IMG/VR virus record: IMGVR_UViG_3300025133_000083
Direction: 5' to 3' (one strand)
Length of the DNA: 20,000 bases
Source of the DNA: an uncultured virus (IMG/VR IMGVR_UViG_3300025133_000083)
Lineage: Duplodnaviria; Heunggongvirae; Uroviricota; Caudoviricetes
Made by a program: the position numbers and the translations under genes. Under the pieces are notes generated by a model. It saw nothing but the letters and a program-made list of their open reading frames with translations. It ran no database searches and was not told where the DNA came from. Shown piece after piece: positions 1,284 through 14,692 of this stretch (position 1 is its first letter; every line of letters starts with the position of its first letter).

Positions 1284-1288
1284 AACAA

Positions 1289-2811: not shown

Positions 2812-2885
2812 CTTATGATGGAAATTGTATAGCTACGCAGGAGCCACACCGATAACTAAAACATTAGTTGATTATTACCTCTTAA

Positions 2886-3003: not shown

Positions 3004-3046
3004 ATGTAAGCAAACAAAGAGAAACAAACACTAATAACAAGAACAC

Positions 3047-3355: not shown

Positions 3356-3368
3356 ACACCTAGAAAAT

Positions 3369-3713
3369 ATGAGAACCAAAGAGAAAGCAATAAGATACTT
3401 TGAGCAAAAGTTAGGGAACTTAACCTACCCAAGCAAGAACGACAGAACCGACCCCGAATACAGGAAAGCGTTAATAGCGGAAGCCCTGAAGAACCTAGAA
3501 TTCGTGAGGAACGTTAAAGAGTACGAGAAAGACAACTTTTTCGAGAAGTTCCAAACGCTAGCCAATATCAAATGTACGCAGTCCTGCGGAGGACACCATA
3601 AAGGAATGATGAACGACAATCTGTACAAGAAAGAGAAAGTTAGGCTAGGGGAAGAACCATCTAACGACCTGCTGTACAGCTTCGGAATCTTCAACGGAAC
3701 GGGAAGTTACTAA
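3369..3713 (+). CDS. Hypothetical early protein
   Basis: 114 aa; CTAGAAAATATG start. Confidence 0.8.
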   Translation: MRTKEKAIRYFEQKLGNLTYPSKNDRTDPEYRKALIAEALKNLEFVRNVKEYEKDNFFEKFQTLANIKCTQSCGGHHKGMMNDNLYKKEKVRLGEEPSNDLLYSFGIFNGTGSY

Positions 3714-3735
3714 CCAACGATAAAAACTAGAAAAC

Positions 3736-4008
3736 ATGAGCATACCACAAATAGAAAACTTTACAAGCAGCAGGGGAAACAAAGTTCCCAACCAATTCAG
3801 AGTAATAACCAATGAAGGAAGCTACTTTAAATCGTATGAAACGATGATAGCGGCAAAGCTGAACAACGGTAAGATATTACTAGACAAGGATAATTGGAAC
3901 TACTCCTCAACAACGGCAACTTACAGGAACCAATTCTTGGGGCTGACAACAAAGGAGACACAACAACAGATTGAAGACGGAACAATAGAGCTAACCAATT
4001 TAAACTAG
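3736..4008 (+). CDS. Conserved phage protein of unknown function (NQF...F.SY...IA...LD...W.YS.TT..YRN.FLG family)
   Basis: Pattern recalled from a widespread phage hypothetical family; junction motif at start. Confidence 0.8.
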   Translation: MSIPQIENFTSSRGNKVPNQFRVITNEGSYFKSYETMIAAKLNNGKILLDKDNWNYSSTTATYRNQFLGLTTKETQQQIEDGTIELTNLN

Positions 4009-4013
4009 GAGAC

Positions 4014-4238
4014 ATGAATCGATTATATCCCGAAGGAATGAGCAAGCAAGAGATTGAAACACTTAGCAAAGCTTACAAGATACAAGAGAACCTGAAGCAG
4101 GTAAACGAATACCAATCAGAGATACACCCACTATTACACGACAAGGGAAGAGCTAACGACCACACAGACTCTTGGAGGAAGATTGAACACACGCAAAAAC
4201 TGATAAAGAGCTTAATACATGAACTCAAAAACTACTAG
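4014..4238 (+). CDS. Hypothetical early protein
   Basis: 74 aa; CTAGGAGACATG start. Confidence 0.75.
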   Translation: MNRLYPEGMSKQEIETLSKAYKIQENLKQVNEYQSEIHPLLHDKGRANDHTDSWRKIEHTQKLIKSLIHELKNY

Positions 4239-4243
4239 AAAAC

Positions 4244-4399
4244 ATGAAGACGAAGCACACAACAATCTTAATTAATTGGAATTCTGAACGATCTATGAAG
4301 AGAGCAACGAGACTCAAGGCAAAGCTAGAGAACGCAGGAGCCACACTTATAAACACGATAAGCACACCGAACACGGCAGCATTTATATACCAACACTGA
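4244..4399 (+). CDS. Small hypothetical protein (51 aa, not in ORF track)
   Basis: MKTKHTTILINWNSERSMKRATRLKAKLENAGATLINTISTPNTAAFIYQH*; exact junction motif. Confidence 0.75.
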   Translation: MKTKHTTILINWNSERSMKRATRLKAKLENAGATLINTISTPNTAAFIYQH

Positions 4400-4420
4400 A
4401 AACATAAACATCTAGAAAGC

Positions 4421-4696
4421 ATGAGAACAATCAAGGAAATAAAAGAGTACTGCGTACAAGTAGACCTACAAAACGTTCTAGCAGGAGATAAGAGCATACA
4501 GGCGTATGATGGAGATAACCATATCCCACTCACAACAGAGAAAGAGATTCGGCTATTCTACATGAACGCGAACATCAAGGATCTACTTCAAATCTACGCT
4601 GAATACAATGGATTGAAATGCTACAAAAAAGACGAGCCTGAAGATTATGCAATATCATACGGCTTAGACATTATTGACCTGATACAAAACATCTAA
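4421..4696 (+). CDS. Hypothetical early protein
   Basis: 91 aa; CTAGAAAGCATG start. Confidence 0.8.
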   Translation: MRTIKEIKEYCVQVDLQNVLAGDKSIQAYDGDNHIPLTTEKEIRLFYMNANIKDLLQIYAEYNGLKCYKKDEPEDYAISYGLDIIDLIQNI

Positions 4697-4708
4697 AAAC
4701 TAGAAAAC

Positions 4709-5389
4709 ATGAGCAGGATACACGATGAAACAAGCGAATTCTACAAAAGAGCATTGAAGAGAGCTAACGACAACCTGATTAAACTACTTGACGACCCTAA
4801 CGTGAAGGAGACCGACCTAACAGTAGCAGCGGCAAAGATTAAAGTGTTAGAGGACGAGAAGAAAGAGAAGGAGACAATTAAGCTACTTGAAAGGCACAAC
4901 GAAGAACAGGACAAAAAGAGAGCAATGTTGAAACGAGTACTATCAATTCAACTTCCTGAAGAGGATATTACTACGCAAGAGTCAACCATTCACGGAACCA
5001 AAATTCGTAAGCATCCTGAATTAATGAAGTTGCAGGAGGACACATGGAGAATCTACTTGACATTTGAAAAAGGAATGTACCCGAAGATCCAAGTAAACGG
5101 GGAATCAATTAACCTACTCAAGTATAAGAGCAACGGCTACACAGAAGACTCAAGCTACGAACCATTCGAGACATTTGAAGAGGCATGTAATTACAACGGT
5201 ATTCAGTTCAAGAATCCGACCATAAAAAAGTCTCTTCAGAACATTGCAAAATTACAAGCTGAATCCGATAAGATGAAGGCAAAGCTAGAGGAGTATAGCG
5301 AGAAGTGTAAAAAGCTGAACAGTTACACCTTAAGCAGTATTGGAGCCATAAGACAACAACAGAGACACCACTACGAATATTTTCACTGA
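4709..5389 (+). CDS. Hypothetical protein with coiled-coil segments
   Basis: 226 aa, K/E-rich helices; exact junction motif. Confidence 0.85.
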   Translation: MSRIHDETSEFYKRALKRANDNLIKLLDDPNVKETDLTVAAAKIKVLEDEKKEKETIKLLERHNEEQDKKRAMLKRVLSIQLPEEDITTQESTIHGTKIRKHPELMKLQEDTWRIYLTFEKGMYPKIQVNGESINLLKYKSNGYTEDSSYEPFETFEEACNYNGIQFKNPTIKKSLQNIAKLQAESDKMKAKLEEYSEKCKKLNSYTLSSIGAIRQQQRHHYEYFH

Positions 5390-5419
5390 AACAGGATAAC
5401 ACGTAAAAGGATAGGACAC

Positions 5420-5626
5420 ATGAGATATACAGGACAACAAGAACCGACACAACAGGAGAGAAAAAAAGGGGCTGAAGTAGTATTCACATACGAAACAGAA
5501 CAGGGAGAGGTAAGAATAAAAGCTTGCGCATGTTACGAAAGTTGGGAACAGTGGGGAGCAACAACCGACCAACTATACAAGAACGTTGAAAGAGTTGAAA
5601 ATTGGAGACAAAACATAAACAACTAG
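5420..5626 (+). CDS. Hypothetical early protein
   Basis: 68 aa; stop TAG lies within the next junction motif. Confidence 0.75.
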   Translation: MRYTGQQEPTQQERKKGAEVVFTYETEQGEVRIKACACYESWEQWGATTDQLYKNVERVENWRQNINN

Positions 5627-5631
5627 AAAAC

Positions 5632-5799
5632 ATGAAAAAATTAGAATTCAATATCAGTTACATGGTAAACGGCACAAGGGAGATTGAACGCATATTTGCT
5701 AACAGTCATAGAGAAGCAACTACAAAGGCAAAATCTAAAGGTAAAGACGTTACAGTGACATACATTGAAAAGCCTACCGACCTACTTTATTTACACTGA
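5632..5799 (+). CDS. Small hypothetical protein (55 aa; start corrected from 5602)
   Basis: MKKLEFNISY...; ATG in exact junction motif. Confidence 0.75.
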   Translation: MKKLEFNISYMVNGTREIERIFANSHREATTKAKSKGKDVTVTYIEKPTDLLYLH

Positions 5800-5812
5800 A
5801 AAACTAGAAAAC

Positions 5813-6397
5813 ATGAGAACAGAAACGACAACAAGAACACTTTACAAGTTCAACGAACTTAGCGAAGAAGGCAAACAGAAAGCACTTGAAAACATGTACA
5901 ACATAAACGTAGATCATGAATGGTACGAATTCATATTTGAAGACGCCAAAACAATAGGTGCATTGATAGGGATAGACATTGAAAAAATATACTTCAGTGG
6001 ATTCTCTTCACAAGGAGACGGGGCATGTTTTGAGGGATATTACAGATACGAAAAAGGTTCAGCTAAGAACCTGAAGGAACACGCACCAAAAGACAAGGAG
6101 CTGCATAGAATCGTAGAAGAACTTCAGGAGCTACAACGTAAGAACTTTTACGGATTGACTGCAAACGTAAAGCATTCAGGACACTATTCACATGAAAATT
6201 GCACGATTATAAACGTAGATAGCGAAACAGAACAGGAGATACCTGAAGACGAGATTGAAGACCTATTGAGGGACTATATGAGATGGATCTACAGAGTTCT
6301 AGAAAAGGAATACGAATATCTAACAGGAGACGAAGCAATTAAAGAAACGATTGAATGTAACGAGTACGAATTCACTGAAGACGGAGAACAAGCATAA
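5813..6397 (+). CDS. Conserved acidic phage/ICE protein (IYFSGFxSQGDGACFEG family, often auto-labelled 'antitoxin of toxin-antitoxin stability system'); start corrected from 5765
   Basis: Motifs LYKFNELSEE, IYFSGFSSQGDGACFEG, WIYRVLEKEYEYLT, NEYEFTEDG. Confidence 0.75.
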   Translation: MRTETTTRTLYKFNELSEEGKQKALENMYNINVDHEWYEFIFEDAKTIGALIGIDIEKIYFSGFSSQGDGACFEGYYRYEKGSAKNLKEHAPKDKELHRIVEELQELQRKNFYGLTANVKHSGHYSHENCTIINVDSETEQEIPEDEIEDLLRDYMRWIYRVLEKEYEYLTGDEAIKETIECNEYEFTEDGEQA

Positions 6398-6420
6398 CTA
6401 ACCATAAAAAACTAGAAAAC

Positions 6421-6705
6421 ATGAAAAAGGTAACAACACTATTGACGGCAGTATTATTAATCGCAACAGGAGCAACGGCACAAAACTCGACAAGAGGCAA
6501 GGACGGGAACTTTGCAGCCATTAAGACGGTAATAGCAGCCCACGACAGTACAACGACCTACACCTACACCGACAACAAGGGAAACGTAGAACCCGTATTT
6601 GTAGGCAAGAGACACGCCTATTACCTAGCGAGAACAAGCAAACCAAGTAAACGAAACGGATACAAGGGGAAATATTACAGAAAGTACCTGAAGACGGACG
6701 ACTAA
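6421..6705 (+). CDS. Small exported protein with Sec signal peptide
   Basis: MKKVTTLLTAVLLIATGATA/QN: basic N-terminus, hydrophobic core, AxA cleavage followed by Gln. Confidence 0.75.
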   Translation: MKKVTTLLTAVLLIATGATAQNSTRGKDGNFAAIKTVIAAHDSTTTYTYTDNKGNVEPVFVGKRHAYYLARTSKPSKRNGYKGKYYRKYLKTDD

Positions 6706-6716
6706 AACAAGGAGCC

Positions 6717-6953
6717 ATGAAAAACGCTAGAAAGTACATTTCACTTTGGGAAAGAGAGGAACGGCAAAATAAAAAAGCTGAATACTACTCAATAGGATTG
6801 AACTACAACCCCGAAAGAAGGGATAATTGGCAAGATAAAGTCCTGAAGACCAACCAAGAGATGTATCAACTAGAAAGCACCCTGACAACAGAAGAAAAGG
6901 AATACATAAACGAATACTACAACGTAGAAATATTTAACGACAAGGAGCTATGA
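6717..6953 (+). CDS. Hypothetical protein flanked by 16-bp direct repeats
   Basis: 78 aa; ACAAGGAGCYATGAAA at 6707 and 6940. Confidence 0.75.
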   Translation: MKNARKYISLWEREERQNKKAEYYSIGLNYNPERRDNWQDKVLKTNQEMYQLESTLTTEEKEYINEYYNVEIFNDKEL

Positions 6954-7147
6954 AATTTACAAGGATACAAGACCAACACACCCACGAAATAATTCAATAC
7001 AGGGTAAACGACACAAGGACAACAAGAAGTGTTTACAATGAATATAAATGGAGATACGAGACACAAAAAAGGGGAGCTTATAATTGTTCACTTACAAGTA
7101 GGACGAAAACAGGCAACTTCAGGCACACACACTACATATCAATTTAA
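6950..7147 (+). CDS. Small hypothetical protein
   Basis: 65 aa; ATGA overlap with previous gene. Confidence 0.7.
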   Translation: MKFTRIQDQHTHEIIQYRVNDTRTTRSVYNEYKWRYETQKRGAYNCSLTSRTKTGNFRHTHYISI

Positions 7148-7166
7148 CAGGATAAAACTAGAAAGC

Positions 7167-7769
7167 ATGAAAAAGGAATACGACATACTTACAACAGTAA
7201 CAATGGATAGAGACAATTTTTTCGATTATATAACCGAAGGATTGATAGACCATCTACCTGCAAAGGTTCCACAAATAGAGAACAAGAGAGGTAAGAATAA
7301 TTTCACGTATAACGGTAAGGACTATTTAATTGAAGCTTTCGACACGGAGATAGAATTAGTTAATAGCATTGCACGTACATACAAGCAACCGACAAGAAAC
7401 TACCGACTCAAATGTTTAAACGGGGAAAGTGAGATAGACGCCCTATCCTACGCAAGTACAAAAAGAGACCTTGTTGATAGTATAAACTTCAACTTGAAAA
7501 GCCAATGGACTCTTCAGTATAAAAACGAAGCCCCTGAATTTTGGGAGCTTAAAACCCTGAAGGACTATTTAAAGAACACAACCGACAAGGAGAGAGCCGA
7601 AATATTTGAAACGGCATTGAATGAAATGGAATACGGACTCAAAAAATGGGATGCAATTATAAGAGCAACAGGGTACTATTCAACACCTTCAGGTAAGCTA
7701 GTTAAAAACGACTACATACAAGAACACAAAAACAGGAGCCTAGAATACGCAATTAAGAACCTACTTTAA
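7167..7769 (+). CDS. Hypothetical protein (200 aa; start corrected from 7029)
   Basis: MKKEYDILTT...; AAAACTAGAAAGCATG start. Confidence 0.8.
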   Translation: MKKEYDILTTVTMDRDNFFDYITEGLIDHLPAKVPQIENKRGKNNFTYNGKDYLIEAFDTEIELVNSIARTYKQPTRNYRLKCLNGESEIDALSYASTKRDLVDSINFNLKSQWTLQYKNEAPEFWELKTLKDYLKNTTDKERAEIFETALNEMEYGLKKWDAIIRATGYYSTPSGKLVKNDYIQEHKNRSLEYAIKNLL

Positions 7770-7780
7770 AACTAGAAAAC

Positions 7781-8173
7781 ATGATAACGAAAGAACACTA
7801 CGATAAGAGCTATTTCTGTAAAGAATGGGCAGCAACCCCACAAATAGCAAAAGAGAAGCTTAGAGGCATGTATGTACAAGCATGGAAGGAATATTTAGAA
7901 GGTAGCGAGAACGCCCAAATGGATATTGACGACCTGAAGGAGGACTACAAACTACTTCAGGTAGAAGCACCCGAAGTTCTGTATCAACTAACAGATGAAG
8001 AAGCATGGAAACGGATATACGACAAGTTTGCTATTGACTTCTTGACCGCGCCAATAACATTCGACCAATTCAGGGGAATGGTACAAGAGAAGTTTATCCT
8101 GAACGGAACCCAACAGTTAGAGCTTCAGGTTCAATGGGAAGATAAAGAGGAGATATTAACCGAAGAAAACTAG
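7781..8173 (+). CDS. Hypothetical acidic protein
   Basis: 130 aa; exact junction motifs at both ends. Confidence 0.85.
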   Translation: MITKEHYDKSYFCKEWAATPQIAKEKLRGMYVQAWKEYLEGSENAQMDIDDLKEDYKLLQVEAPEVLYQLTDEEAWKRIYDKFAIDFLTAPITFDQFRGMVQEKFILNGTQQLELQVQWEDKEEILTEEN

Positions 8174-8178
8174 AAAAC

Positions 8179-9030
8179 ATGATACCCTTAACATTCAACA
8201 ACTTAGACAATTGGAGACACAACAGTCAGCTTTGGAATAAGTTTGACAACCTGAACCAAGAACAAGAACATAGACACGTACATTGGAACGAAAGCACCGA
8301 TAGGTACAAGTACAATAGCAGCACAAGTTACAGGAACATTATGTTCAGTCACATAATGAAGGAGTACAGATCCATGTTTGGGGTAGAGTACAACCAAGAC
8401 GTAAAACACTATGGACACTACGACCTCTTCACACAAAAGAAGCTGAATGAAGAGGAGCGATTCCAACAACGAGCGCAAGTATATATACACACTTCAATAA
8501 GTAGTATCCTAGATAATTGGAGTATTGAATTCACTGTAAAAGCTAACGGCTTTGAACAAGGCAGTAAACGCTTCAACTTCACACCACGCAGCAATGCACC
8601 CCTAACAGAGGAGTACATAGTACAAGCAACCTTTGAATACATAAACAAGCACCTGATATTCCCTGAAGGACTATTCAGGAACTTTCAAGAAGCTTTCAAC
8701 GGCACAAAGGAATACGCCCTGAAGCAATACAGATTAGCGACAGAACAAAGAGCGCAGGATATAAAAAGACAGGACAGGGAAGACAGGGTAAACGAATATA
8801 TATTCAAACGCTTCAATATCGACATAGACTACGATCTGAATGCTACTGAAAAACAGATTATCGACAGGTGTAAAGAATTCACACGTATAAACGGTAAGCC
8901 TCAAGATACTTTGACACTTTGTCAATTCAGACCGCTATACATATTAGACGGCTTTGACGGGGATATTGACGAAGTTGAAAGTCTACTAGACGAACATCTA
9001 ACAGAAAACCCAACAGTTATTTACCTATAA
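8179..9030 (+). CDS. Hypothetical protein
   Basis: 283 aa; exact junction motifs at both ends; no recognised domain. Confidence 0.85.
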   Translation: MIPLTFNNLDNWRHNSQLWNKFDNLNQEQEHRHVHWNESTDRYKYNSSTSYRNIMFSHIMKEYRSMFGVEYNQDVKHYGHYDLFTQKKLNEEERFQQRAQVYIHTSISSILDNWSIEFTVKANGFEQGSKRFNFTPRSNAPLTEEYIVQATFEYINKHLIFPEGLFRNFQEAFNGTKEYALKQYRLATEQRAQDIKRQDREDRVNEYIFKRFNIDIDYDLNATEKQIIDRCKEFTRINGKPQDTLTLCQFRPLYILDGFDGDIDEVESLLDEHLTENPTVIYL

Positions 9031-9042
9031 AAACTAGAAAAC

Positions 9043-9306
9043 ATGAAATTTGAAAGGAGCCTTAACGCAATCGAAAAAGCATATTTGAAGCACGTAAATC
9101 TATGTAATAGCCTATTGAAAAGGATTGAACCGCACATTGAATACGACACAGAAGAGACGGAGTTCGGTATTGGTTATCAAGAAAGTGATAGTTGCCACAC
9201 GTTATATGATGACTATGGAAATGTCGCTCCCTTAGATTCGGTATTGCGAATAATTACCGACAACGGTAAAATAACATACAGCGAATTCCACGAACTATGT
9301 ATTTAA
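9043..9306 (+). CDS. Hypothetical protein
   Basis: 87 aa; exact junction motif. Confidence 0.8.
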   Translation: MKFERSLNAIEKAYLKHVNLCNSLLKRIEPHIEYDTEETEFGIGYQESDSCHTLYDDYGNVAPLDSVLRIITDNGKITYSEFHELCI

Positions 9307-9326
9307 ACACTGAAAAACTAGAAAAC

Positions 9327-9665
9327 ATGAAAGAGCAACTAACAGAACTACTCGAAATGCTGAAGACCGACTCCAACTGCGATTGGTCGGTATGCAACCC
9401 GAATGATGAATTCAAAACCCTATCTGAAACAGTACGGGGAATGATAGACGGATACAACCCAAGAGAAGAGTACAAAAAAACAGGGTACTTTGGTCTACAT
9501 TGGAGTACAGAAGACATAATAGGGAAAGCTAAAGAACATGGTCACACATGCACCGAAGAGCAAGCCCAAGAGATAGCTGAAGGACTAGAAAGCAAAGGAG
9601 ATTGTAACTACGGGATAACTTGGGAACATATAGACATGGAAATTGCAGACTATTTTGGAAACTAA
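9327..9665 (+). CDS. Hypothetical protein (112 aa; start corrected from 9297)
   Basis: MKEQLTELL...; C-terminal WSTEDI...GITWEHI; exact junction motif. Confidence 0.8.
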   Translation: MKEQLTELLEMLKTDSNCDWSVCNPNDEFKTLSETVRGMIDGYNPREEYKKTGYFGLHWSTEDIIGKAKEHGHTCTEEQAQEIAEGLESKGDCNYGITWEHIDMEIADYFGN

Positions 9666-9678
9666 AAACCTAGAAAAC

Positions 9679-9960
9679 ATGAAACATACACAGGGAGAGT
9701 GGCAAGTAAAAGCAGACAATTCAGTAACGCCAAAAGATAATGTAGGCACTGTAATAGCTCAAATATGTAGCGCGAACAATAACGAAGAAGAAGCACAAGC
9801 AAACGCTGCATTGATAGCGGCTGCACCTGAACTATTGAAAGCATTGAACAGTCTTTTACATTGCCCCGACTTAAATCTTTGTGAAATAGAAATCGAAACG
9901 AGAGAAGCAATAGACATAGCTGCAAATGCAGTCCACAAAGCAACAAACGTAAACGGATAG
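9679..9960 (+). CDS. Conserved phage protein (HT.G.W ... ANAxLIAAAPELL family); start corrected from 9643
   Basis: MKHTQGEW and EAQANAALIAAAPELLKAL, a widespread phage hypothetical signature. Confidence 0.8.
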   Translation: MKHTQGEWQVKADNSVTPKDNVGTVIAQICSANNNEEEAQANAALIAAAPELLKALNSLLHCPDLNLCEIEIETREAIDIAANAVHKATNVNG

Positions 9961-9965
9961 AAACT

Positions 9966-10202
9966 ATGCAGGAAGACAACAGATATTGCAAAGGAGAGAT
10001 ACTACACACCCCGAAAGGAGAAAGTATCCCGAATACATTCAAATTCAGGTACGACCCCCACACCGACACAATGCGAGTAACCGACATAAAAGGGGAGCTA
10101 TTAATATTCACTAACCAAATGGAGCAAGTGAGTAAAGTGATAGACGACATGTACAACTTAGACGAAAGCAAACAACACCCGAAAGCATACATCTTAAACT
10201 AG
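9966..10202 (+). CDS. Hypothetical protein
   Basis: 78 aa; TAG-5nt-ATG spacing at both ends. Confidence 0.75.
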   Translation: MQEDNRYCKGEILHTPKGESIPNTFKFRYDPHTDTMRVTDIKGELLIFTNQMEQVSKVIDDMYNLDESKQHPKAYILN

Positions 10203-10207
10203 AAAAC

Positions 10208-10387
10208 ATGGACTTATACACGCAACAACGAAACGCATCAAGAGAAGCAACTACTCTAACAAATGAAGGTAAAATACCATCATACGACCTACTGATGAAA
10301 TGCAGTAAAGAACAGTTAAGTGAGAAGTTAATACACCACCTGAAGGTTATTGAAGCACTTAGAGAAATGATAAAACGTAACGACTAG
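10208..10387 (+). CDS. Small hypothetical protein (59 aa, not in ORF track)
   Basis: MDLYTQQRNASREATTLTNEGKIPSYDLLMKCSKEQLSEKLIHHLKVIEALREMIKRND*; exact motifs at both ends. Confidence 0.8.
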   Translation: MDLYTQQRNASREATTLTNEGKIPSYDLLMKCSKEQLSEKLIHHLKVIEALREMIKRND

Positions 10388-10392
10388 AAAAC

Positions 10393-10653
10393 ATGAGCAA
10401 GCTAACAACAAGACAGCGAACAGGATCACTTTTGCAATACGCAAACTTCAAAGACGGTACTCGCATCAACCTGATACGGATTGATAAACCATTGGAGGGA
10501 TACAAAGCAAAGTTTTCAATTTTACAGAACCTCAACAACCCCTTTGCAAAAGATAAAACATTCAAAGGAATCAATGAAGCTTCAAAATACTTTGAGCTTC
10601 TTACAGAATGTACCAAGTCTACACTTACCAATAGAGGAATAACAGCTAACTAA
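10393..10653 (+). CDS. Hypothetical protein
   Basis: 86 aa; exact junction motif. Confidence 0.8.
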   Translation: MSKLTTRQRTGSLLQYANFKDGTRINLIRIDKPLEGYKAKFSILQNLNNPFAKDKTFKGINEASKYFELLTECTKSTLTNRGITAN

Positions 10654-10666
10654 AAAACTAGAAAAC

Positions 10667-11035
10667 ATGGAAAACACAGAAGAGAACAACGCATTGATAG
10701 CAGAATCTAGGGGATTCAAATTTGACCCACTCCGAGAGAAGTCTTGGGAAGACCGTATAGGTTGGAGGTATGACGAATTAAAATTTCACACTTCTTGGGA
10801 TTGGTTGATGCCCGTAGTTGAGGAATGTTTGGTAGGAGAAGCAGAACAAGGAGAACACGCAACTGGTCTTATAAAACAAATCTATGAAGGACTAAACAAC
10901 ATAGATATTAACGCCACGCATAGAGCAGTAGTAAAGTTCATCAAATGGGTAAACGACCAACTACCTAGAGAAGCCACAATAGTAATACATGACGGAATGA
11001 TGTACAACCCTGAAAAACCTGAAGACGATGCCTAA
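10667..11035 (+). CDS. Conserved phage protein (NxLIA..G...FHTSWDWLMPVVE), possibly phage ABA-sandwich-like
   Basis: SWDWLMPVVE motif recalled from Bacteroidota phage proteins; fold assignment tentative. Confidence 0.65.
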   Translation: MENTEENNALIAESRGFKFDPLREKSWEDRIGWRYDELKFHTSWDWLMPVVEECLVGEAEQGEHATGLIKQIYEGLNNIDINATHRAVVKFIKWVNDQLPREATIVIHDGMMYNPEKPEDDA

Positions 11036-11336
11036 ACCAAGCACCGAGAAAGCCAAAGTTCAATGGGTATTGGAGAGATCCAAGAAGAGCAGGGATAACA
11101 ACCTTGTTCTGTACAAGAACATCTTCAAACACTTCCTGAAGATAGACCTGAACAGTATTACAGGATACGACCTACTGAAAGGTATAAAACATAAAAAGTA
11201 TCCCAATTACGACAGCGTAACAAGAGCCTCAAGAAAGCTTCAGGAACTAAACCCCGAATTAAGAGGAGCCGAATGGGAAGCTAGACATGGGAAGCCCGTA
11301 GATGAAACAATTAAAGACCTGAAACAAAACTTTTAG
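11028..11336 (+). CDS. Conserved basic phage hypothetical protein
   Basis: 102 aa; RDNN.VLY and SVTRASRKLQE.NPELRG. Confidence 0.75.
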   Translation: MPKPSTEKAKVQWVLERSKKSRDNNLVLYKNIFKHFLKIDLNSITGYDLLKGIKHKKYPNYDSVTRASRKLQELNPELRGAEWEARHGKPVDETIKDLKQNF

Positions 11337-11341
11337 AAAAC

Positions 11342-11560
11342 ATGGAAGCTAAGATTACAACAGTAGTAACTAAAACAAAACGCTACGGGAGGACAACTCA
11401 ACATACTCAATACCATATTTCAGGAGGTAGCCAAAACAACAAATATTTAACGTGTGGCAATAGATTCAAATCTATTACAGGAGTTAAGAAGTGGCTATTG
11501 TCCATTGGGTATGATAAAGTGACCACAGGCAAGAAAGAAACAACAACATACAACAACTAA
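11342..11560 (+). CDS. Small basic hypothetical protein
   Basis: 72 aa; TTAGAAAACATG start. Confidence 0.75.
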   Translation: MEAKITTVVTKTKRYGRTTQHTQYHISGGSQNNKYLTCGNRFKSITGVKKWLLSIGYDKVTTGKKETTTYNN

Positions 11561-11565
11561 AAAAC

Positions 11566-11811
11566 ATGGAGAGCAAAAAAACATACCACTACAAAGTAGC
11601 ATTCCACAAATCATCAATACACAGAGTAGCATCTGTTGAAATAGACAACGGAGTAATAACCCTTAAATCTATCTTCTTAACAGATACCTATGCAACTGTA
11701 AAAGAAGCCTTAGACGAACTAAAAATAGACTTCAAATACATAGAGCATACCCACACAACCCGAACAACAACAGAAAACGTAAACAACATAATCCAAGACA
11801 AGGAAGCATGA
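11566..11811 (+). CDS. Hypothetical protein
   Basis: 81 aa; CTAAAAAACATG start. Confidence 0.75.
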   Translation: MESKKTYHYKVAFHKSSIHRVASVEIDNGVITLKSIFLTDTYATVKEALDELKIDFKYIEHTHTTRTTTENVNNIIQDKEA

Positions 11812-12116
11812 AAATGAAAACGGCACATACAATAGAGGGAACCGAAATAGAATTGGATATTGCATTCGACTACACCCCCGAAGAACCTGAAGTACGGTAT
11901 TACAAAGACGGTTCAGGACAACCTGCAACTCCGCCCGACATCGAAATAACAGATGTTATATGGACAAGAGAAGACCTGAAGGTTGGAAGTGGATTGACAT
12001 TCGAGAAGACTAAAACTCCCGTAGATGTATTCGAGCTAATGGACAAACTAGGACACATGGACGAGATTGAAAAAACCTGTTGGGGTATGATTGAGAACAT
12101 AAACTTTGAAGATTAG
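11808..12116 (+). CDS. Acidic phage hypothetical protein
   Basis: 102 aa; FDYTPEEP...DGSG.P..PPDIEI; ATGA overlap. Confidence 0.8.
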   Translation: MKMKTAHTIEGTEIELDIAFDYTPEEPEVRYYKDGSGQPATPPDIEITDVIWTREDLKVGSGLTFEKTKTPVDVFELMDKLGHMDEIEKTCWGMIENINFED

Positions 12117-12121
12117 AAAAC

Positions 12122-12304
12122 ATGAAAAAAGAAAAGATCAAAAAACTTATCCTCGAAGAGGGACTTACAATAACAGATGTAATTGATGTTGTTGTAGAAA
12201 TGAACGGCTTTGTCGGAGTAGGACTCATCTCGCTTGGAGACGGTCTAAAGAAGTATGTTTACGACAAGATAGAACAACACACACCTGATTATTGGAACAC
12301 ATAA
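12122..12304 (+). CDS. Small hypothetical protein
   Basis: 60 aa; TTAGAAAACATG start. Confidence 0.75.
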   Translation: MKKEKIKKLILEEGLTITDVIDVVVEMNGFVGVGLISLGDGLKKYVYDKIEQHTPDYWNT

Positions 12305-12315
12305 AAACTACAAAA

Positions 12316-12666
12316 ATGGACAGAACAAGAATAACAGACACACTTGGAATAAGAGTTTCCAAATCAACAGCTAGAGGTTCAAATCTCGCATACTTTAGAC
12401 CTGAACCTACACGGATCTTAAGAGGATACCCTAGAGAGGAAGCGGTATTCGAAATGATAGAAAATGATGACGGAATATTAACAGCAGCAATAGGGGTTAT
12501 ACCTGAAACAAGCTCAAAAAATGGACTGAACTTCATCGAAAAACCGAATGGATGTATGACGGTGCAAGCCCCTAAAAAAATGATGTCGGTTGGAAGCTAC
12601 ATCATGCAATCTGAACCAATATTCGAAAAGGGGATTGATTGGTACTTACTTGAAAGAAAGCAATAA
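12316..12666 (+). CDS. Hypothetical protein (116 aa; start corrected from 12292)
   Basis: MDRTRITD...; AAAAACTACAAAAATG context. Confidence 0.75.
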   Translation: MDRTRITDTLGIRVSKSTARGSNLAYFRPEPTRILRGYPREEAVFEMIENDDGILTAAIGVIPETSSKNGLNFIEKPNGCMTVQAPKKMMSVGSYIMQSEPIFEKGIDWYLLERKQ

Positions 12667-13175
12667 TGGAAGAACAAGAAGCAGAAATAAGAACAGGCTC
12701 CGAAGTAGCAACAATAAGGGGAGACGTAAAAAGAATTTGCCACGAAGTAGAGCATACAACGGACATAAATCTTCTCCTAGAACAGGCAACCCAATTAAGC
12801 GAATACCTATTCTACATTCAGGAGCAGGAGCAAAAACTACATGGACTCGTTGTAGATGCCAAACAAATGATTAACCAAGCAAAGGAGAGCGTTAAGACAT
12901 TTGAATTCAAAACAGCACTACGCCTAAATAGTACCGAAGGCGGAGGTTACGCTATGAATAGGGCGGAAAAAATGGCTTACCTGAAATCGGAGAACCTAAG
13001 ACAATCCGTTACAGAAGTAACAGAAGCTCTAGGAGAAGTAGACAAGGATTACAGGGATATAAAAGGCTTCAAAACAGCGGTTCAGGAGTACCTTATGACA
13101 ATCCGACAGAAGGTAAAGAACTTACAGATTGAAGCAGGAGTCTACCCGATAAGACCTGATGAACAAACAAACTGA
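12666..13175 (+). CDS. All-helical protein, possibly UvsY-like recombination mediator
   Basis: 169 aa; two long helices separated by a Gly-rich turn; adjacent to SSB-like gene; function tentative. Confidence 0.45.
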   Translation: MEEQEAEIRTGSEVATIRGDVKRICHEVEHTTDINLLLEQATQLSEYLFYIQEQEQKLHGLVVDAKQMINQAKESVKTFEFKTALRLNSTEGGGYAMNRAEKMAYLKSENLRQSVTEVTEALGEVDKDYRDIKGFKTAVQEYLMTIRQKVKNLQIEAGVYPIRPDEQTN

Positions 13176-13186
13176 AAATAATTTCA

Positions 13187-13227
13187 TTTATTTGCAACCT
13201 GTAAAGTATTTATACATATATTTGACA
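13187..13227 (+). promoter_or_regulatory. Bacteroidota-type promoter
   Basis: TTTG 13191-13194, 22-nt spacer, TATATTTG 13217-13224; near copy of 19141-19179. Confidence 0.7.
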
Positions 13228-13267
13228 AACATTTAATTTTAACAGTAACAAGTAACGATTAGAAAAA

Positions 13268-14101
13268 ATGAGTAGAAGCAATCCAACAAACGACATGAAA
13301 AATCCTGCAAAGATGTGGGTAGAATATCACGGAGGAGGAGAGAAAGGGGGAACCTTTAGCTTTTTCGACAAAGAAAAACTGAACGAAGACGGAAGCAGAG
13401 GCGCGAATGTATCTCTAGGGGCTAAAATCCGCTTCATGTTCTTAGACCAAACATACACCGTTACAGGATGGAACGAGCCTTCGTACAGCGGTATATATGC
13501 CAACGAAGTAAAAGACATAACCAACGGTATCCTTACTGTTAAGGCTTTTAAAGGTCAAGAGTCTTATAAAGGAAGTTGGAACAACATCAAAGCAGCAGTA
13601 AAGCAGATGGGCGGTAAATTCACTACCAACATCTACATCGCTATGAAGCAGGGCGACAAGACATTGGGAATATCCTGCATACAGCTAAAAGGGGCGGCAT
13701 TCGCAAAGTGGAATGAATTCGTAAAGACCGCAGGTAAAAAAGCCCTAGAGGAAGGCGCTGTCAAAATTGTATCTCACTTAAGCGGAGTAAAAGGCGCAGT
13801 GAAATTCACAACCCCGATCTTCGAAATGGTAGCTGAAGGTGTTACAGAAGAAAGCAACAATGCAGCTATCGAATTGGATAGAGAGCTACAAGAGTACCTA
13901 GCGGCTAAAATAGAAGTTCCTACAACTCCTATGACGACTTCAGACGAATCAGCAGGACAACCTGTACAGATTGATGAACCTCAACACGGAACAATTCCTA
14001 AGAAGAACGTAGAGCCGATTGAAGAAGCTGAAATTGTAGGCGAAGCACCTTCAGGAGATTTCGCAGACTTAGAGGATGATGAAGACGAGCTACCGTTCTA
14101 A
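13268..14101 (+). CDS. Putative single-stranded DNA-binding/annealing protein
   Basis: 277 aa; beta-rich aromatic/Gly core, disordered acidic tail ending DDEDELPF (SSB-type C-terminus). Confidence 0.7.
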   Translation: MSRSNPTNDMKNPAKMWVEYHGGGEKGGTFSFFDKEKLNEDGSRGANVSLGAKIRFMFLDQTYTVTGWNEPSYSGIYANEVKDITNGILTVKAFKGQESYKGSWNNIKAAVKQMGGKFTTNIYIAMKQGDKTLGISCIQLKGAAFAKWNEFVKTAGKKALEEGAVKIVSHLSGVKGAVKFTTPIFEMVAEGVTEESNNAAIELDRELQEYLAAKIEVPTTPMTTSDESAGQPVQIDEPQHGTIPKKNVEPIEEAEIVGEAPSGDFADLEDDEDELPF

Positions 14102-14113
14102 AAACTAGAAACA

Positions 14114-14263
14114 ATGGGAAGAGCAAAAATTTTAGTCTACAACAAAAAAGGGAGGAAGCGATTGGTAGCAAGATTTAAGAATTACTACAATGCTGCTGTA
14201 TGGGGTAAAACTTTACCTAAGCATAAAGTAAATGATTACTTCCTCGCTAGAAAAGCAAAATAA
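14114..14263 (+). CDS. Small basic protein (49 aa, not in ORF track)
   Basis: MGRAKILVYNKKGRKRLVARFKNYYNAAVWGKTLPKHKVNDYFLARKAK*; AAAACTAGAAACAATG start. Confidence 0.7.
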   Translation: MGRAKILVYNKKGRKRLVARFKNYYNAAVWGKTLPKHKVNDYFLARKAK

Positions 14264-14275
14264 AAACTAGAAAAC

Positions 14276-14689
14276 ATGAACCACGAAGAGATAGAAGACT
14301 ACCTGAACGACCTTGCTACAGATGTAGCCGAAGGGAACGTAGAAACCCTAAAAGTGTATGGTATTCTCCAAGTAATCCGTAAAGCTGTTGAGCCAATAGA
14401 GAAAGCTGTTAAACAGGCGGCAATGAAGGAGGCTGTAGACGCAGGGGCGGATAAGGAGCCTGTAAGATACTTTGGGTTTGAATTCCGACATAAGAACGGG
14501 GCTAGAAGGTTTGAGTTTAAACACATCCCTGCTTGGGTGGAGATTGACGAAGAACGAAAGAAGATAGAGAAAATAGCTAAGACCGCTGAAGAGATGGGGC
14601 AGCCCATGCCAAACCCCGACACAGGGGAAATGATCTCTCCTGCTCATTGCAAACACAACAACCCTAGCTTAATAGCTTCTAAAGTATAA
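14276..14689 (+). CDS. Conserved Bacteroidota phage hypothetical protein
   Basis: 137 aa; exact junction motif; C-terminal PDTGEMI.PA. Confidence 0.8.
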   Translation: MNHEEIEDYLNDLATDVAEGNVETLKVYGILQVIRKAVEPIEKAVKQAAMKEAVDAGADKEPVRYFGFEFRHKNGARRFEFKHIPAWVEIDEERKKIEKIAKTAEEMGQPMPNPDTGEMISPAHCKHNNPSLIASKV

Positions 14690-14692
14690 GCA

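What the first reader, a model, noticed from the sequence alone, without database searches (positions are those of the whole stretch)
3360..14278. Cassette-like array of small phage genes joined by a near-invariant CTAGAAAACATG junction
Seen: 15 exact and 6 one-mismatch copies of a 12-mer, usually extended 5' by AAAA, each ending on a gene's ATG. Weaker copies occur at 3047, 4014, 5420, 9966, 13268 and 14114. Two junctions share 24 identical bases (ACACTGAAAAACTAGAAAACATGA at 5793 and 9307). The genes between them are unrelated, 150-850 bp, co-oriented behind one promoter. Known: Bacteroidota initiation regions are A-rich but loose (A-3, A-6, A-12/-13 preferences), far less conserved than this; loose parallels are mycobacteriophage start-associated sequences and T4-like promoter stem-loop cassettes. 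Inference: the motif is either a shared microhomology/recombination site that lets single genes be gained, lost or reordered (an integron-like array with no integrase in the window), or a dedicated phage translation or RNA-processing signal, or both.
Basis: partly seen in the sequence, partly recalled or inferred. Interest (0 to 1): 0.9.

Follow-up and report, generated by a model that had tools for sequence, protein, structure and literature searches.

The report
Stereotyped start-linked junction in phage early operon
An uncultured marine phage that probably infects Bacteroidota joins most of its small early genes with one almost invariant 12-base "stop, five bases, start" sequence that its likely hosts do not use, most likely a private translation start signal that also marks where accessory genes get swapped.

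Summary
CTAGAAAACATG occurs 15 times exactly and 7 times with one mismatch, all on the + strand, against 0.23 expected. Twenty-one copies end on the ATG of a predicted gene; one (5885) is an internal in-frame ATG. The motif is confined to the first transcription unit behind a Bacteroidota-type promoter. None of 21 downstream genes has it. The genes it joins are not paralogs.

It is not a host consensus. A relaxed form gives 58 hits against about 40 for a reversed control in 101 Flavobacteriaceae genomes.

A related phage (L150) keeps the core AGAAAAC-ATG on mostly different, reordered genes. It also carries a second stereotyped junction elsewhere. One close pair (L124 and L150) shows an ORF-precise cassette replacement whose left breakpoint lies at the motif.

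Best reading, about 0.5: a start-associated, Shine-Dalgarno-less translation initiation and re-initiation junction, with cassette exchange as a consequence. Rivals are an operator for a phage RegA/RegB-like factor, a dedicated recombination site, and a phage promoter. It is not integron-like: no attC-like repeats and no integrase were seen. It is a new variant of known kinds (SAS, PeSL).

The parts
2787..2814 (+). terminator-like hairpin plus T run just upstream of the early promoter
   Evidence: consensus scan only
2971..3003 (+). P1: Bacteroidota-type promoter, TTTG, 21 nt, TATATTTG
   Evidence: consensus -33/-7 TTTG/TANNTTTG as quoted in Baez 2019
3047..13175 (+). TU1: 30 small co-oriented genes with no other intergenic promoter match; holds 20 of the 21 start-linked copies
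3360..3371 (+). junction copy, 1 mismatch, ATG of gene 3369-3713; gap to upstream stop 13 nt
3727..3738 (+). junction copy, exact, ATG of gene 3736-4008; gap 22
4235..4246 (+). junction copy, exact, ATG of gene 4244-4399; the motif's TAG is the upstream stop (gap 5)
4412..4423 (+). junction copy, 1 mismatch (AGAAAG), ATG of gene 4421-4696; gap 21
4700..4711 (+). junction copy, exact, ATG of gene 4709-5389; gap 12
5623..5634 (+). junction copy, exact, ATG of gene 5632-5799; gap 5
5804..5815 (+). junction copy, exact, ATG of gene 5813-6397; gap 13; right breakpoint of the X6 variant lies at 5800
5885..5896 (+). one-mismatch copy inside gene 5813-6397 (in-frame internal ATG); probably not a junction
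6412..6423 (+). junction copy, exact, ATG of gene 6421-6705; gap 23
7158..7169 (+). junction copy, 1 mismatch, ATG of gene 7167-7769; gap 19
7772..7783 (+). junction copy, exact, ATG of gene 7781-8173; gap 11
8170..8181 (+). junction copy, exact, ATG of gene 8179-9030; gap 5
9034..9045 (+). junction copy, exact, ATG of gene 9043-9306; gap 12
9318..9329 (+). junction copy, exact, ATG of gene 9327-9665; gap 20
9670..9681 (+). junction copy, exact, ATG of gene 9679-9960; gap 13
10199..10210 (+). junction copy, exact, ATG of gene 10208-10387; gap 5
10384..10395 (+). junction copy, exact, ATG of gene 10393-10653; gap 5
10658..10669 (+). junction copy, exact, ATG of gene 10667-11035; gap 13; the same junction stands before its L150 orthologue (31% aa identity)
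11333..11344 (+). junction copy, 1 mismatch, ATG of gene 11342-11560; gap 5
11557..11568 (+). junction copy, 1 mismatch (TAA in place of TAG), ATG of gene 11566-11811; gap 5
12113..12124 (+). junction copy, 1 mismatch, ATG of gene 12122-12304; gap 5
13191..13224 (+). P2: second Bacteroidota-type promoter (TTTG, 22 nt, TATATTTG) in the 92-nt gap; conserved in L150
14267..14278 (+). junction copy, exact, ATG of gene 14276-14689; gap 12; last copy
3038..3049 (+). weak copy (2 mismatches) before the first gene of TU1
4005..4016 (+). weak copy CTAGGAGACATG (2 mismatches), gene 4014-4238; gap 5
5411..5422 (+). weak copy (3 mismatches), gene 5420-5626
9957..9968 (+). weak copy (3 mismatches), gene 9966-10202; gap 5
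13259..13270 (+). weak copy TTAGAAAAAATG (2 mismatches), gene 13268-14101 (SSB-like)
14105..14116 (+). weak copy CTAGAAACAATG (2 mismatches), gene 14114-14263

Best explanation
The motif is a start-associated junction. It is a stereotyped, Shine-Dalgarno-less translation initiation region with fixed geometry: A-rich at -14..-10, C-9, TAG at -8..-6, AAAAC, ATG, then a purine. It links about 20 independent small accessory genes along one long early mRNA, made by host RNA polymerase from promoter P1.

Ribosomes finish the upstream gene at a stop codon 5 to 23 nt before the ATG; in 8 of 21 copies this is the motif's own TAG or TAA. They then start again, or fresh 30S subunits load, on an unstructured A-rich site with A at -3, -12 and -13.

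Every junction carries the same 12-17 bases, and each gene has a separate stop and start rather than an overlap. Genes can therefore be gained, lost or replaced one at a time by recombination in or next to the junction. That exchange in turn keeps the junctions uniform.

Shown: the motif, its fixed link to ATG, its restriction to one gene block, its absence from the likely host family, its conserved core in relatives, and gene turnover at the junctions.

Inferred: that it acts in translation, that TU1 is 'early', that the host is a Bacteroidota, and that exchange is a consequence rather than the purpose.
For: 1. All 15 exact 9-mers are followed by ATG, and 21 of 22 copies open a gene, all on the coding strand.
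2. Within the 33-gene array, the 4 genes whose start overlaps the upstream gene all lack the motif. The 21 copies all lie at non-overlapping junctions, with gaps of 5 nt (8 copies), 11-13 nt (8) and 19-23 nt (5).
3. Downstream genes use another joint style. 11 of 21 overlap the upstream gene, and 0 of 21 come within 2 mismatches of the motif.
4. The composition fits the Bacteroidia initiation determinants in Baez 2019 (passages): A at -3 in 21 of 21, at -13 in 20 of 21 and at -12 in 14 of 21, with an A-rich -14..-10. An SD-like tetramer lies within 20 nt of only 8 of 46 starts.
5. Predicted unpaired probability over -20..+12 is 0.73 at motif starts, 0.68 at other array starts, 0.59 at downstream starts and 0.52 at random positions.
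6. Host-type promoters (TTTG, 20-22 nt, TATATTTG) occupy the three largest + strand gaps, and none lies at the junctions.
7. Relative L150 keeps AAAAC-ATG at 16 of 57 starts, on mostly non-homologous genes. The junction before w10667 and t10016 is nearly identical although the proteins share 31% identity.
8. Motif presence follows the junction and not the gene: w6950 overlaps its neighbour and lacks the motif, while its orthologue t4548 has it.
9. Outside the window's own contig, 65 of 98 occurrences of the 19-mer in metagenome loci open an ORF of 40 codons or more.
Against: - There are no expression or translation data, and no RNA run holds the sequence.
- Generic A-richness does not explain the invariant C-9, T-8, G-6 and C-1. 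G at -6 departs from the A-6 preference in Baez 2019.
- The likely host family does not use the motif (58 hits against about 40 for the control), so host ribosomes clearly do not require it.
- The same phage translates its other genes without it.
- L150 carries a second, quite different stereotyped junction on 5 neighbouring genes, and one 30-nt junction repeated 5 times. This points to copying by descent or recombination, or to class-specific recognition, rather than to a single optimum.
- 80 distant relatives and the cultured Tenacibaculum phage Gundel_1 manage with loose contexts.
- Gene calls are my own first-ATG ORF calls.
Confidence: 0.5

Rival explanations
1. The motif is the RNA operator or target of a phage-encoded post-transcriptional regulator. 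This could be a RegA-like repressor or a RegB-like endoribonuclease that recognises the initiation regions of one temporal class and shuts early genes off, or possibly boosts them.
For: - The motif is class-restricted: 21 of 33 array genes carry it against 0 of 21 downstream genes.
- Non-adenine positions are invariant, and the motif is absent from Flavobacteriaceae genomes.
- L150 has a second junction class on another gene block, as separate regulons would.
- T4 gives the precedent (Uzan and Miller 2010, passages). RegA sites are unstructured and A/U-rich, include the AUG and may include the upstream stop codon. RegB cuts GGAG in early initiation regions, with the consensus GGAGRAYARAA.
Against: No candidate factor was found. 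There is no Pfam, PHROG or NCBIfam hit to an RNA-binding protein or RNase among 46-50 proteins, though most are unannotated and the genome is incomplete. In L150 the positions at -9/-8 vary (TA, TT, AT, CG), so a strict operator would be only AGAAAAC-ATG. The same 17-19-mer occurs in phage contigs that share no proteins with the window.
Confidence: 0.2
2. The motif exists primarily as a recombination site: a microhomology 'linker' of the PeSL type at which accessory gene cassettes are exchanged within and between phages. Any effect on translation is secondary.
For: - The left part of the array is hypervariable. Of the 26 window genes between 3047 and 11035, only 4 have an L150 orthologue (w5813, w6421, w6950, w10667), and three of these (w5813, w6421, w6950) stand in a different order.
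- L124 and L150 share flanks at 92% and 85% identity. Homology stops exactly after ...GTAGAAAACATGAAA and resumes 4 nt before the stop codon; one 82-aa gene is replaced by two genes of 106 and 55 aa.
- A variant contig in run X6 joins window 623 to 5800, the 5' edge of a junction, with 38 other letters between.
- L150 has five consecutive unrelated genes with the same 30-nt junction.
- The phage encodes a PD-(D/E)XK exonuclease and an SSB-like protein.
Against: - A recombination site need not sit at a fixed distance from ATG or include it.
- Gaps of 5-23 nt force any gene-preserving breakpoint into the junction, so the coincidence is not diagnostic.
- The right breakpoint in L124 against L150 is at the stop codon and not in a motif.
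- Junction similarity beyond the core is no more than column shuffles give in the window (P = 0.09 and 0.18).
- No indel or motif-to-motif joint appeared in four runs holding the same phage, though these were contigs only.
- Orthologues gain or lose the motif with their context.
- Motif-bearing genes are not significantly less conserved: 4 of 21 against 10 of 25, Fisher P = 0.20.
Confidence: 0.12
3. Each copy is a promoter, or part of one, for a phage-directed RNA polymerase or sigma factor, giving leaderless or very short-leader mRNAs for each small gene.
For: Information extends over about 25 nt, from -20 to +5, which is the size of single-subunit RNA polymerase promoters (recalled). Earlier findings of this scan read similar junction repeats in other phages as promoters for leaderless genes (unchecked leads). 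The rest of the genome, which could encode such a polymerase, was not seen.
Against: - Three host-type promoters serve this region.
- The first gene behind P1 has only a weak copy.
- Conservation is strongest at -9..-1 and includes the ATG, while upstream positions drift between relatives.
- The junctions have no TAnnTTTG-like element.
- Most F. johnsoniae transcripts are leadered: 87% have leaders above 10 nt (Baez 2019).
- No RNA polymerase or sigma factor appears among the proteins seen.
Confidence: 0.08
4. The repeats are a by-product of tandem gene duplication, of chance in A-rich DNA, or of assembly error.
For: In two Flavobacteriia genomes, paired copies of the motif did turn out to lie before tandem duplicate genes or repeated segments.
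Against: No paralogs exist among the window's genes. 0 of 200 shuffles reach the count. The same sequence is present at 100% identity in an independent metagenome contig and in contigs of four other runs.
Confidence: 0.02

Closest known systems
Start-associated sequences (SAS) of Cluster K mycobacteriophages (Pope et al. 2011, PMC3203893; passages read)
   Same: A short asymmetric conserved sequence in one orientation, immediately upstream of start codons with a strong preference for ATG. It is restricted to the non-structural part of the genome and stands before genes of different families. The upstream gene's stop codon sometimes lies inside it. It is virtually absent from host genomes, and its function is still unproven.
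   Different: SAS is 13 bp (GGGATAGGAGCCC), G+C-rich, contains the Shine-Dalgarno core and lies 3-7 bp from the start. Here the host type is SD-blind. The motif is A-rich, abuts and includes the ATG, contains a stop codon at a fixed 5-nt distance, and has no extended inverted repeats (ESAS).
PeSL (promoter-early stem-loop) cassettes of T4-type phages (Arbiol 2010, PMC2839356; Comeau 2014, PMC4122927; abstracts and outlines read)
   Same: A repeated short regulatory motif between small non-essential ORFan genes in a hyperplastic early region. Gene insertions, deletions and replacements between relatives map to it.
   Different: A PeSL is a strong promoter plus a terminator hairpin, acts in transcription and was shown to form mini-circles. 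Here there is no promoter element and no hairpin at the junctions. The signal is tied to the start codon, and no circles or deletions could be looked for in raw reads.
Targets of T4 RegA (translational repressor) and RegB (endoribonuclease) (Uzan and Miller 2010, PMC3014915; passages read)
   Same: Unstructured, A-rich sequences in the initiation regions of many early genes. They include or adjoin the AUG and sometimes the upstream stop codon, and they mark a temporal class for post-transcriptional control.
   Different: The T4 sites are loose: no exact match exists between the SELEX consensus and the natural RegA sites, and the RegB core is GGAG within an SD. Here the sequence is nearly invariant and no RegA or RegB homologue was detected.
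Kozak-like, SD-less initiation regions of Bacteroidia (Baez 2019, PMC6847099, passages; Arpin 2026, PMC13000457, abstract and section 16)
   Same: A-rich at -14..-11, a purine at -3, low secondary structure and no SD pairing.
   Different: The host signal is a loose preference. The exact motif is no more frequent than a reversed control in 101 Flavobacteriaceae genomes, and it has G rather than A at -6.
Integron gene cassettes (definition recalled, not taken from a call)
   Same: A co-oriented array of unrelated small genes behind one promoter, with a repeated element at each boundary.
   Different: There are no attC-like imperfect inverted repeats and no integrase in the 24 kb seen. The repeat is at the 5' start of each gene, and orthologues do not carry it with them.

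Membership tests
Start-associated sequences (SAS, Cluster K mycobacteriophages) | Conserved asymmetric short sequence within a few nt upstream of start codons, nearly always in one orientation | tested here: met
   21 of 22 copies end on a gene's ATG and all 22 lie on the + strand
Start-associated sequences (SAS, Cluster K mycobacteriophages) | Restricted to the non-structural (early or accessory) part of the genome | tested here: met
   21 of 33 array genes carry it, against 0 of 21 downstream and 0 of 4 upstream genes within 2 mismatches. The structural genes themselves were not seen.
Start-associated sequences (SAS, Cluster K mycobacteriophages) | Virtually absent from host genomes | tested here: met
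   13 exact 12-mers in 17.6 Mb of 5 Flavobacteriia genomes that were picked for holding the 16-mer. A relaxed pattern gives 58 hits against about 40 for the control in 101 Flavobacteriaceae genomes. The true host is unknown.
Start-associated sequences (SAS, Cluster K mycobacteriophages) | Sequence GGGATAGGAGCCC containing the SD core AGGAG | tested here: not met
   The motif is CTAGAAAAC-ATG with no SD core. It is therefore an analogue and not a member.
PeSL cassettes (T4-type phages) | Strong early promoter within the repeat | tested here: not met
   TAnnTTTG matches on the + strand lie at 2996, 8238, 13217, 17515 and 19169, none at a junction. The sigma-70 scan is not above shuffles.
PeSL cassettes (T4-type phages) | Stem-loop terminator within the repeat | tested here: not met
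   0 inverted repeats of 12 nt or more within 120 nt in 2900-14800. Junctions are the least structured sites.
PeSL cassettes (T4-type phages) | Indels and replacements between relatives map to the repeat | tested here: inconclusive
   There are two cases: L124 against L150 and the X6 joint at 5800. Short gaps force breakpoints into the junction, and the other breakpoint is at a stop codon.
PeSL cassettes (T4-type phages) | Mini-circles formed by exchange between neighbouring repeats | not testable with these tools
   Only Logan contigs of the runs were available, not raw reads.
Integron | attC site (imperfect inverted repeats that fold) at each cassette boundary | tested here: not met
   No inverted repeats and no Rfam family.
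Integron | Tyrosine recombinase IntI next to the array | tested here: inconclusive
   No integrase among the window's 50 proteins (46 of them also scanned). The ORFs of the 4.3 kb extension were listed but not scanned, and the rest of the genome was not seen.
Bacteroidia SD-less initiation region (Kozak-like) | Adenines at -3, -6, -12, -13, and A-rich -14..-11 | tested here: met
   A at -3 in 21 of 21, at -13 in 20 of 21, at -12 in 14 of 21 and at -14 in 16 of 21. Position -6 is G in 20 of 21, so that determinant is not met.
Bacteroidia SD-less initiation region (Kozak-like) | Low mRNA structure around the start | tested here: met
   Mean unpaired probability is 0.73 against 0.59 for other phage starts and 0.52 for random positions (prediction only).
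Bacteroidia SD-less initiation region (Kozak-like) | A loose preference shared by host genes in general | tested here: not met
   The motif is near-invariant here and not enriched in 101 Flavobacteriaceae genomes. It is more than the generic signal.
T4 RegA/RegB-type early-mRNA targets | A cognate phage RNA-binding repressor or endoribonuclease | tested here: inconclusive
   No family hit among 46-50 proteins. Most proteins are unannotated and the genome is partial.

The most novel reading that the evidence does not exclude
The motif is a private ribosome-loading code. [quoted passage not shown] That signal is read by a phage-encoded or phage-modified translation factor or ribosomal component, and perhaps later destroyed by a phage nuclease. 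This would give the phage selective, switchable translation of a plug-and-play gene set. Different gene blocks, such as the second junction class of L150, would use different codes.
Probability: 0.15. Interest if true: 0.85.

Novelty: new variant of a known kind. Interest (0 to 1): 0.55.

Why it matters
How start codons are chosen without Shine-Dalgarno pairing in Bacteroidia is still open. Only loose adenine preferences are known (Baez 2019; Arpin 2026). A natural set of about 20 near-identical initiation regions in front of unrelated genes is a ready-made test bed: it shows which non-adenine positions selection holds fixed.

It also extends the 'start-associated sequence' phenomenon of mycobacteriophages, whose function is unsolved, to an SD-less host. 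It supplies another case in which a regulatory junction coincides with the boundaries of swappable accessory genes, as with PeSLs in T4-like phages. If it proves strong and portable, the 17-mer would be a useful expression part for Flavobacteriia.

Tried and rejected
- Whole genome of the window: none is held.
- GenBank phages: no nucleotide match and no close protein relatives.
- IMG/VR 16-mer scan: 118 loci. All are single hits except two contigs (G001 and G002) with 2 exact and 2 near copies each and no protein homology to the window.
- IMG/VR protein scans with three single proteins: nothing, or one 34% relative (L122), which uses a different recurring junction, TAATC-ATG.
- Paired motif copies in two Flavobacteriia genomes: these are tandem duplicate genes or repeats, not arrays. 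G051 contigs were uninformative.
- RNA evidence: no RNA holder listed. The four runs laid were contigs only, so they show no transcript ends and no rare joints; no indel was listed.
- Pairing with the 16S 3' tail: AGAAA is complementary to a UUUCU tail (sequence recalled). I rejected this because the motif lies about 8 nt too close to the AUG for SD geometry, and Bacteroidia sequester the tail.
- CTAG avoidance: rejected. There are 78 CTAG in the window against 76 expected.
- Extended identity between junctions as a sign of recent conversion: not significant in the window.
- Gene conservation by motif status: Fisher P = 0.20.
- Rfam: no family.
- Function of neighbouring genes: the Atlas search of 18568-19131 gave nothing usable, and PDB sequence searches gave nothing.
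- Literature: searches for the motif string, and for phage / Bacteroidetes / Flavobacteri terms with start codon, intergenic, repeat or conserved motif, found no description of it. Hits for the 12-mer string are papers on MS2 stem-loop RNA imaging and MS2 particles (search listing only), which I take to be a coincidence.
- Earlier notes of this scan on this genome or on look-alike sequence: none.

Full report
**Observation**

CTAGAAAACATG with up to one mismatch occurs 22 times in the 20-kb window: 15 exact and 7 with one mismatch. All are on the + strand and all lie between 3360 and 14278. Dinucleotide shuffles give a mean of 0.23 and a maximum of 3.

The 9-mer CTAGAAAAC occurs 15 times exactly, and every time ATG follows it. 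With my own simple gene calls (first ATG of each + strand ORF), 21 copies end on the ATG that opens a gene. The remaining copy (5885) is an in-frame internal ATG of gene 5813-6397.

The shared 24-mer at 5793 and 9307 is real.

**Anatomy**

An information profile over the 21 start-linked copies shows three zones.
- A near-invariant core at -9..-1: C, T, A, G, A, A, A, A, C.
- An A-rich stretch at -14..-10, an A/C patch at -20..-18, and a frequent T at -16/-15 that belongs to a TAA or TGA.
- A-rich second codons, with +3 being A in 17 and G in 4 of 21.

The upstream gene's stop codon lies at one of three preferred distances among the 32 junctions of the array.
- Gap of 5 nt, where the motif's own TAG or TAA is the stop: 10 junctions, 8 of them among the 21 good copies.
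- Gap of 11-13 nt: 11 junctions.
- Gap of 19-23 nt: 5 junctions.
- Gaps of 30 nt and 92 nt: one junction each.
- Overlap of the upstream gene: 4 junctions.

T-8 and A-7 are kept in 21 of 21 copies and G-6 in 20 of 21, although only 8 copies use them as the stop. The four overlapping starts (6950, 11028, 11808, 12666) all lack the motif.

**Surroundings**

The coding strand is very A-rich and T-poor: 41.6% A and 19.1% T in 3047-13175.

Three matches to the Bacteroidota promoter consensus (TTTG, 20-22 nt, TATATTTG) lie at 2971-3003, 13191-13224 and 19145-19176. These are the three largest + strand intergenic gaps. Only two other + strand TAnnTTTG matches exist, and both are inside genes. The consensus is as quoted in Baez 2019.

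So 3047-13175 (30 genes) reads as one transcription unit, TU1. The last three motif copies follow promoter P2.

Only 8 of 46 starts have an SD-like tetramer within 20 nt. Together with a homologue of gene 10667-11035 found only in Tenacibaculum phage Gundel_1 among GenBank phages, this points to a marine Bacteroidota host, probably Flavobacteriaceae. That is inference.

Almost no protein has a family. The exceptions are a PD-(D/E)XK exonuclease (17387-18106), a methyltransferase-like piece (1344-1901) and several PHROGs of unknown function. No two window proteins are related at blastp E <= 1e-3, so the repeats are not a by-product of gene duplication.

**Restriction to one gene class**

The window is 100% identical to a metagenome contig (loci L177-L180), which gave 4,279 more bases downstream.
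- None of the 21 genes from 14693 to 24267 comes within 2 mismatches of the motif.
- None of the 4 genes at 279-1904 does either.
- Of those 21 downstream genes, 11 overlap their upstream neighbour and 6 have gaps of 1-6 nt.

The phage therefore has two styles of gene joint. The conserved DNA-metabolism block uses overlap or abutment. The accessory block uses a discrete, stereotyped junction.

TU1 lies just after a segment (about 2040-2569) with doubled depth in four runs, where contigs and an adapter-tailed contig end. This suggests a terminal repeat and hence a first-injected, early region, as in Gundel_1. 'Early' is inferred.

**Not a host signal**
- Five Flavobacteriia genomes, chosen because each holds the 16-mer and so biased upward, contain 13 exact 12-mers in 17.6 Mb. 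The window has 15 in 11 kb.
- The paired copies in those genomes precede tandem duplicate genes or repeated segments.
- In 101 Flavobacteriaceae genomes, the relaxed pattern AAACTAGAAANNATG has 58 hits against about 40 for the reversed control (my hand count of the table). Nine of the 58 hold the exact 12-mer.
The real host is unknown.

**Relatives**

GenBank phages and IMG/VR hold no close relative.

A metagenome scan with a 19-mer found 98 occurrences outside the window's own contig.
- 65 of the 98 open an ORF of 40 codons or more, and 24 also directly follow such an ORF. The sequence is thus a recurrent gene-start context in environmental DNA.
- These loci were selected by the pattern, which includes ATGA, so the result is partly built in.

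L150 is a true relative. It has 15 orthologues at 31-74% amino-acid identity. The right part is collinear (w11028-w19973). In the left part, only 4 of the 26 window genes between 3047 and 11035 have an orthologue (w5813, w6421, w6950, w10667). Three of these, w5813, w6421 and w6950, stand in a different order.

L150 junctions keep the core AGAAAAC-ATG; AAAAC-ATG stands at 16 of 57 starts. The bases at -9/-8 vary: TA, TT, AT, CT, GT, CG. Two further features stand out.
- Five consecutive unrelated genes share one 30-nt junction.
- Five genes in another block share a quite different junction, TTAAACCAAAACAAAGAAG-ATG.

More distant contigs also carry the motif.
- L158 and L169 (about 35% identity in shared genes) carry exact copies at some starts.
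- L143, L144, L123, L209 and L165 have no detectable shared proteins with the window and also carry exact copies.

As a control, the same script was run on 80 IMG/VR loci that share only a distant homologue of gene 13268-14101. It found at most 5 starts per locus sharing a 9-mer, and those were loose AT-rich strings. The window gave 19 of 55 and L150 gave 13 of 57. Gundel_1's early array is likewise loose. Near-invariance is thus a trait of this lineage and not of the method or of such phages in general.

**Cassette test**

Two breakpoints could be placed precisely.
- L124 and L150 share an upstream gene and junction at 92% identity. The homology ends exactly after ...GTAGAAAACATGAAA. It resumes at 85% identity 4 nt before the stop codon. 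Between these points, one 82-aa gene in L150 is replaced by two genes of 106 and 55 aa in L124.
- A contig of run X6 joins window 623 to 5800, the 5' edge of a junction, with 38 other letters between.

Several results speak against recombination as the main role.
- With gaps of 5-23 nt, any exchange that keeps both genes intact must fall in the junction.
- The right breakpoint is at a stop codon and not at a motif.
- In the window, junction similarity beyond the core is no more than column shuffles give (P = 0.09 for the longest extension; P = 0.18 for pairs with 7 nt or more).
- No structural variant appeared in four runs holding the identical phage, though these were contigs only.
- Orthologues have or lack the motif according to their junction and not their family. 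w6950 overlaps its neighbour and lacks it, while t4548 has it. t8743 abuts its neighbour and lacks it, while its L158 homologue has it.
- Motif-bearing genes are not significantly less conserved: 4 of 21 against 10 of 25, P = 0.20.

No inverted repeats, no Rfam family and no integrase were found. The integron analogy does not hold.

**Mechanism**

The fixed link to ATG and the coding-strand polarity point to translation. So does the complementarity with overlap coupling.

The motif agrees with the published Bacteroidia determinants (A-rich -14..-11; A at -3, -12 and -13; low structure; Baez 2019). Motif starts have the highest predicted accessibility: 0.73, against 0.59 for other starts of the same phage and 0.52 for random positions.

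I therefore read the motif as a start-associated, SD-less initiation and re-initiation junction of a long polycistronic early mRNA (confidence about 0.5).

That reading does not explain the invariant non-adenine bases or the G at -6. It also does not explain the restriction to one gene block, or the existence of a second junction type in L150. These features fit two other ideas.
- Recognition by a class-specific phage factor, with T4 RegA and RegB as precedents (Uzan and Miller 2010): about 0.2.
- Propagation of junctions by copying and recombination, with PeSLs as the precedent: about 0.12 as the primary function. I think it likely as a secondary consequence.

A promoter for leaderless transcripts (about 0.08) is disfavoured for three reasons. 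Host-type promoters serve the region, the first gene behind P1 has only a weak copy, and conservation peaks at -9..-1. Earlier findings of this scan reached that verdict for other junction repeats (unchecked leads), so the promoter reading should be tested.

**Comparison and novelty**

The closest analogue is the start-associated sequence of Cluster K mycobacteriophages (Pope 2011). It has the same placement, polarity, regional restriction and absence from the host. It differs in sequence and contains an SD core, so this motif is an analogue and not a member.

I found no description of such a motif in Bacteroidota phages (searches; the library lacks most subscription journals).

Similar 'junction motifs between swappable early genes' have been noted several times in this scan. 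The general phenomenon is therefore not new. The new elements are the SD-less setting, the fusion of stop, five bases and start, and the copy density.

I rate it a new variant of a known kind, with interest 0.55.

**Basis of recalled statements (no call behind them)**
- the integron definition;
- short-homology recombination by phage exonuclease/annealase pairs;
- ribosome re-initiation and 70S scanning after termination;
- the favourable AAA second codon;
- the acidic C-terminal tip of bacterial SSB;
- the size of single-subunit RNA polymerase promoters;
- the 16S 3' tail sequence.

Noticed in passing
window 2002-2668 (esp. about 2040-2569): Contig depth is about doubled here in all four runs laid. 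The matching metagenome contig ends at window 2336, short contigs end at 2315, 2347 and 2569, and one contig carries adapter sequence after 2569. This may be a terminal direct repeat or physical genome end just upstream of the early operon.
   Followed up: partly
window 2380-2680: The non-coding stretch holds two copies of GGGGTTACACC[CT]GCAACG and several palindromic CTACGT(A/G)AAACACGTA(G/C) elements, which may be packaging, origin or operator sites. ACGTAGAA also lies before gene 279.
   Followed up: no
window 10783-10822 (gene 10667-11035): In all four runs, many contigs of other organisms match only this 35-40 nt stretch, which encodes KFHTSWDWLMPVVE. The gene family is shared with L150, L158, L169 and Tenacibaculum phage Gundel_1 (gene 12 of its early array). 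It is a widely conserved small early protein of unknown function.
   Followed up: partly
window 13268-14101: This 277-aa protein (phrog_6706) has homologues in many IMG/VR phages and in mycobacteriophages. The AlphaFold model has a core pLDDT near 88 and a mostly beta-strand fold with a disordered acidic tail ending DELPF. Foldseek matches are weak: an entry containing the phiC31 recombination directionality factor (E 6.6e-3) and the T4 and RB69 gp32 cores. [quoted passage not shown]
   Followed up: partly
L150 (reverse complement) 15960-17319: A second stereotyped junction, TTAAACCAAAACAAAGAAG-ATG, stands before five neighbouring genes upstream of the exonuclease. The window has unrelated genes without it at the matching place.
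   Followed up: partly
L150 (reverse complement) 885-2928: Five consecutive non-homologous genes share the same 30-nt junction, CTAACCAGCAAAAAATAAGAAAAC-ATG. A recurring CTAACCA follows or contains the upstream stop in many junctions of L150 and in several of the window (3736, 4014, 6421).
   Followed up: partly
L122 (IMG/VR contig with a 34% homologue of gene 8179-9030): This unrelated-looking phage (33% G+C) uses another recurring stop-start junction, TAATC-ATG, at 6 of 39 starts.
   Followed up: no
window 6708-6719, 6941-6952, 11799-11810: Three motif-less starts share a different context, ACAAGGA(G/A)(C/G)(C/T)-ATG, with an SD-like AAGGAG only 2-3 nt from the ATG. Two of them lie inside the upstream gene.
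   Followed up: no
window 600-626 and 1117-1143: Two overlapping gene joints share GAACTC(G/A)AAAAAGCATTGAA-ATGA, so the C-terminal codons of genes 279-626 and 623-1138 are alike.
   Followed up: no
L143 10800-10846, L144 2813-2859 and L123 (reverse complement) about 2079-2125: In a second group of related contigs that also carry exact motif copies, a promoter-like junction (TGTGTATATTGCACGAAATT...ATG) lies upstream of a 202-aa gene in two members but downstream of its homologue in the third. A similar ATATTGCAC string precedes some L150 junctions.
   Followed up: partly
window 3047-13175: The coding strand shows extreme A over T skew (41.6% A, 19.1% T; AT skew 0.3-0.43), higher than in the downstream unit.
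   Followed up: no
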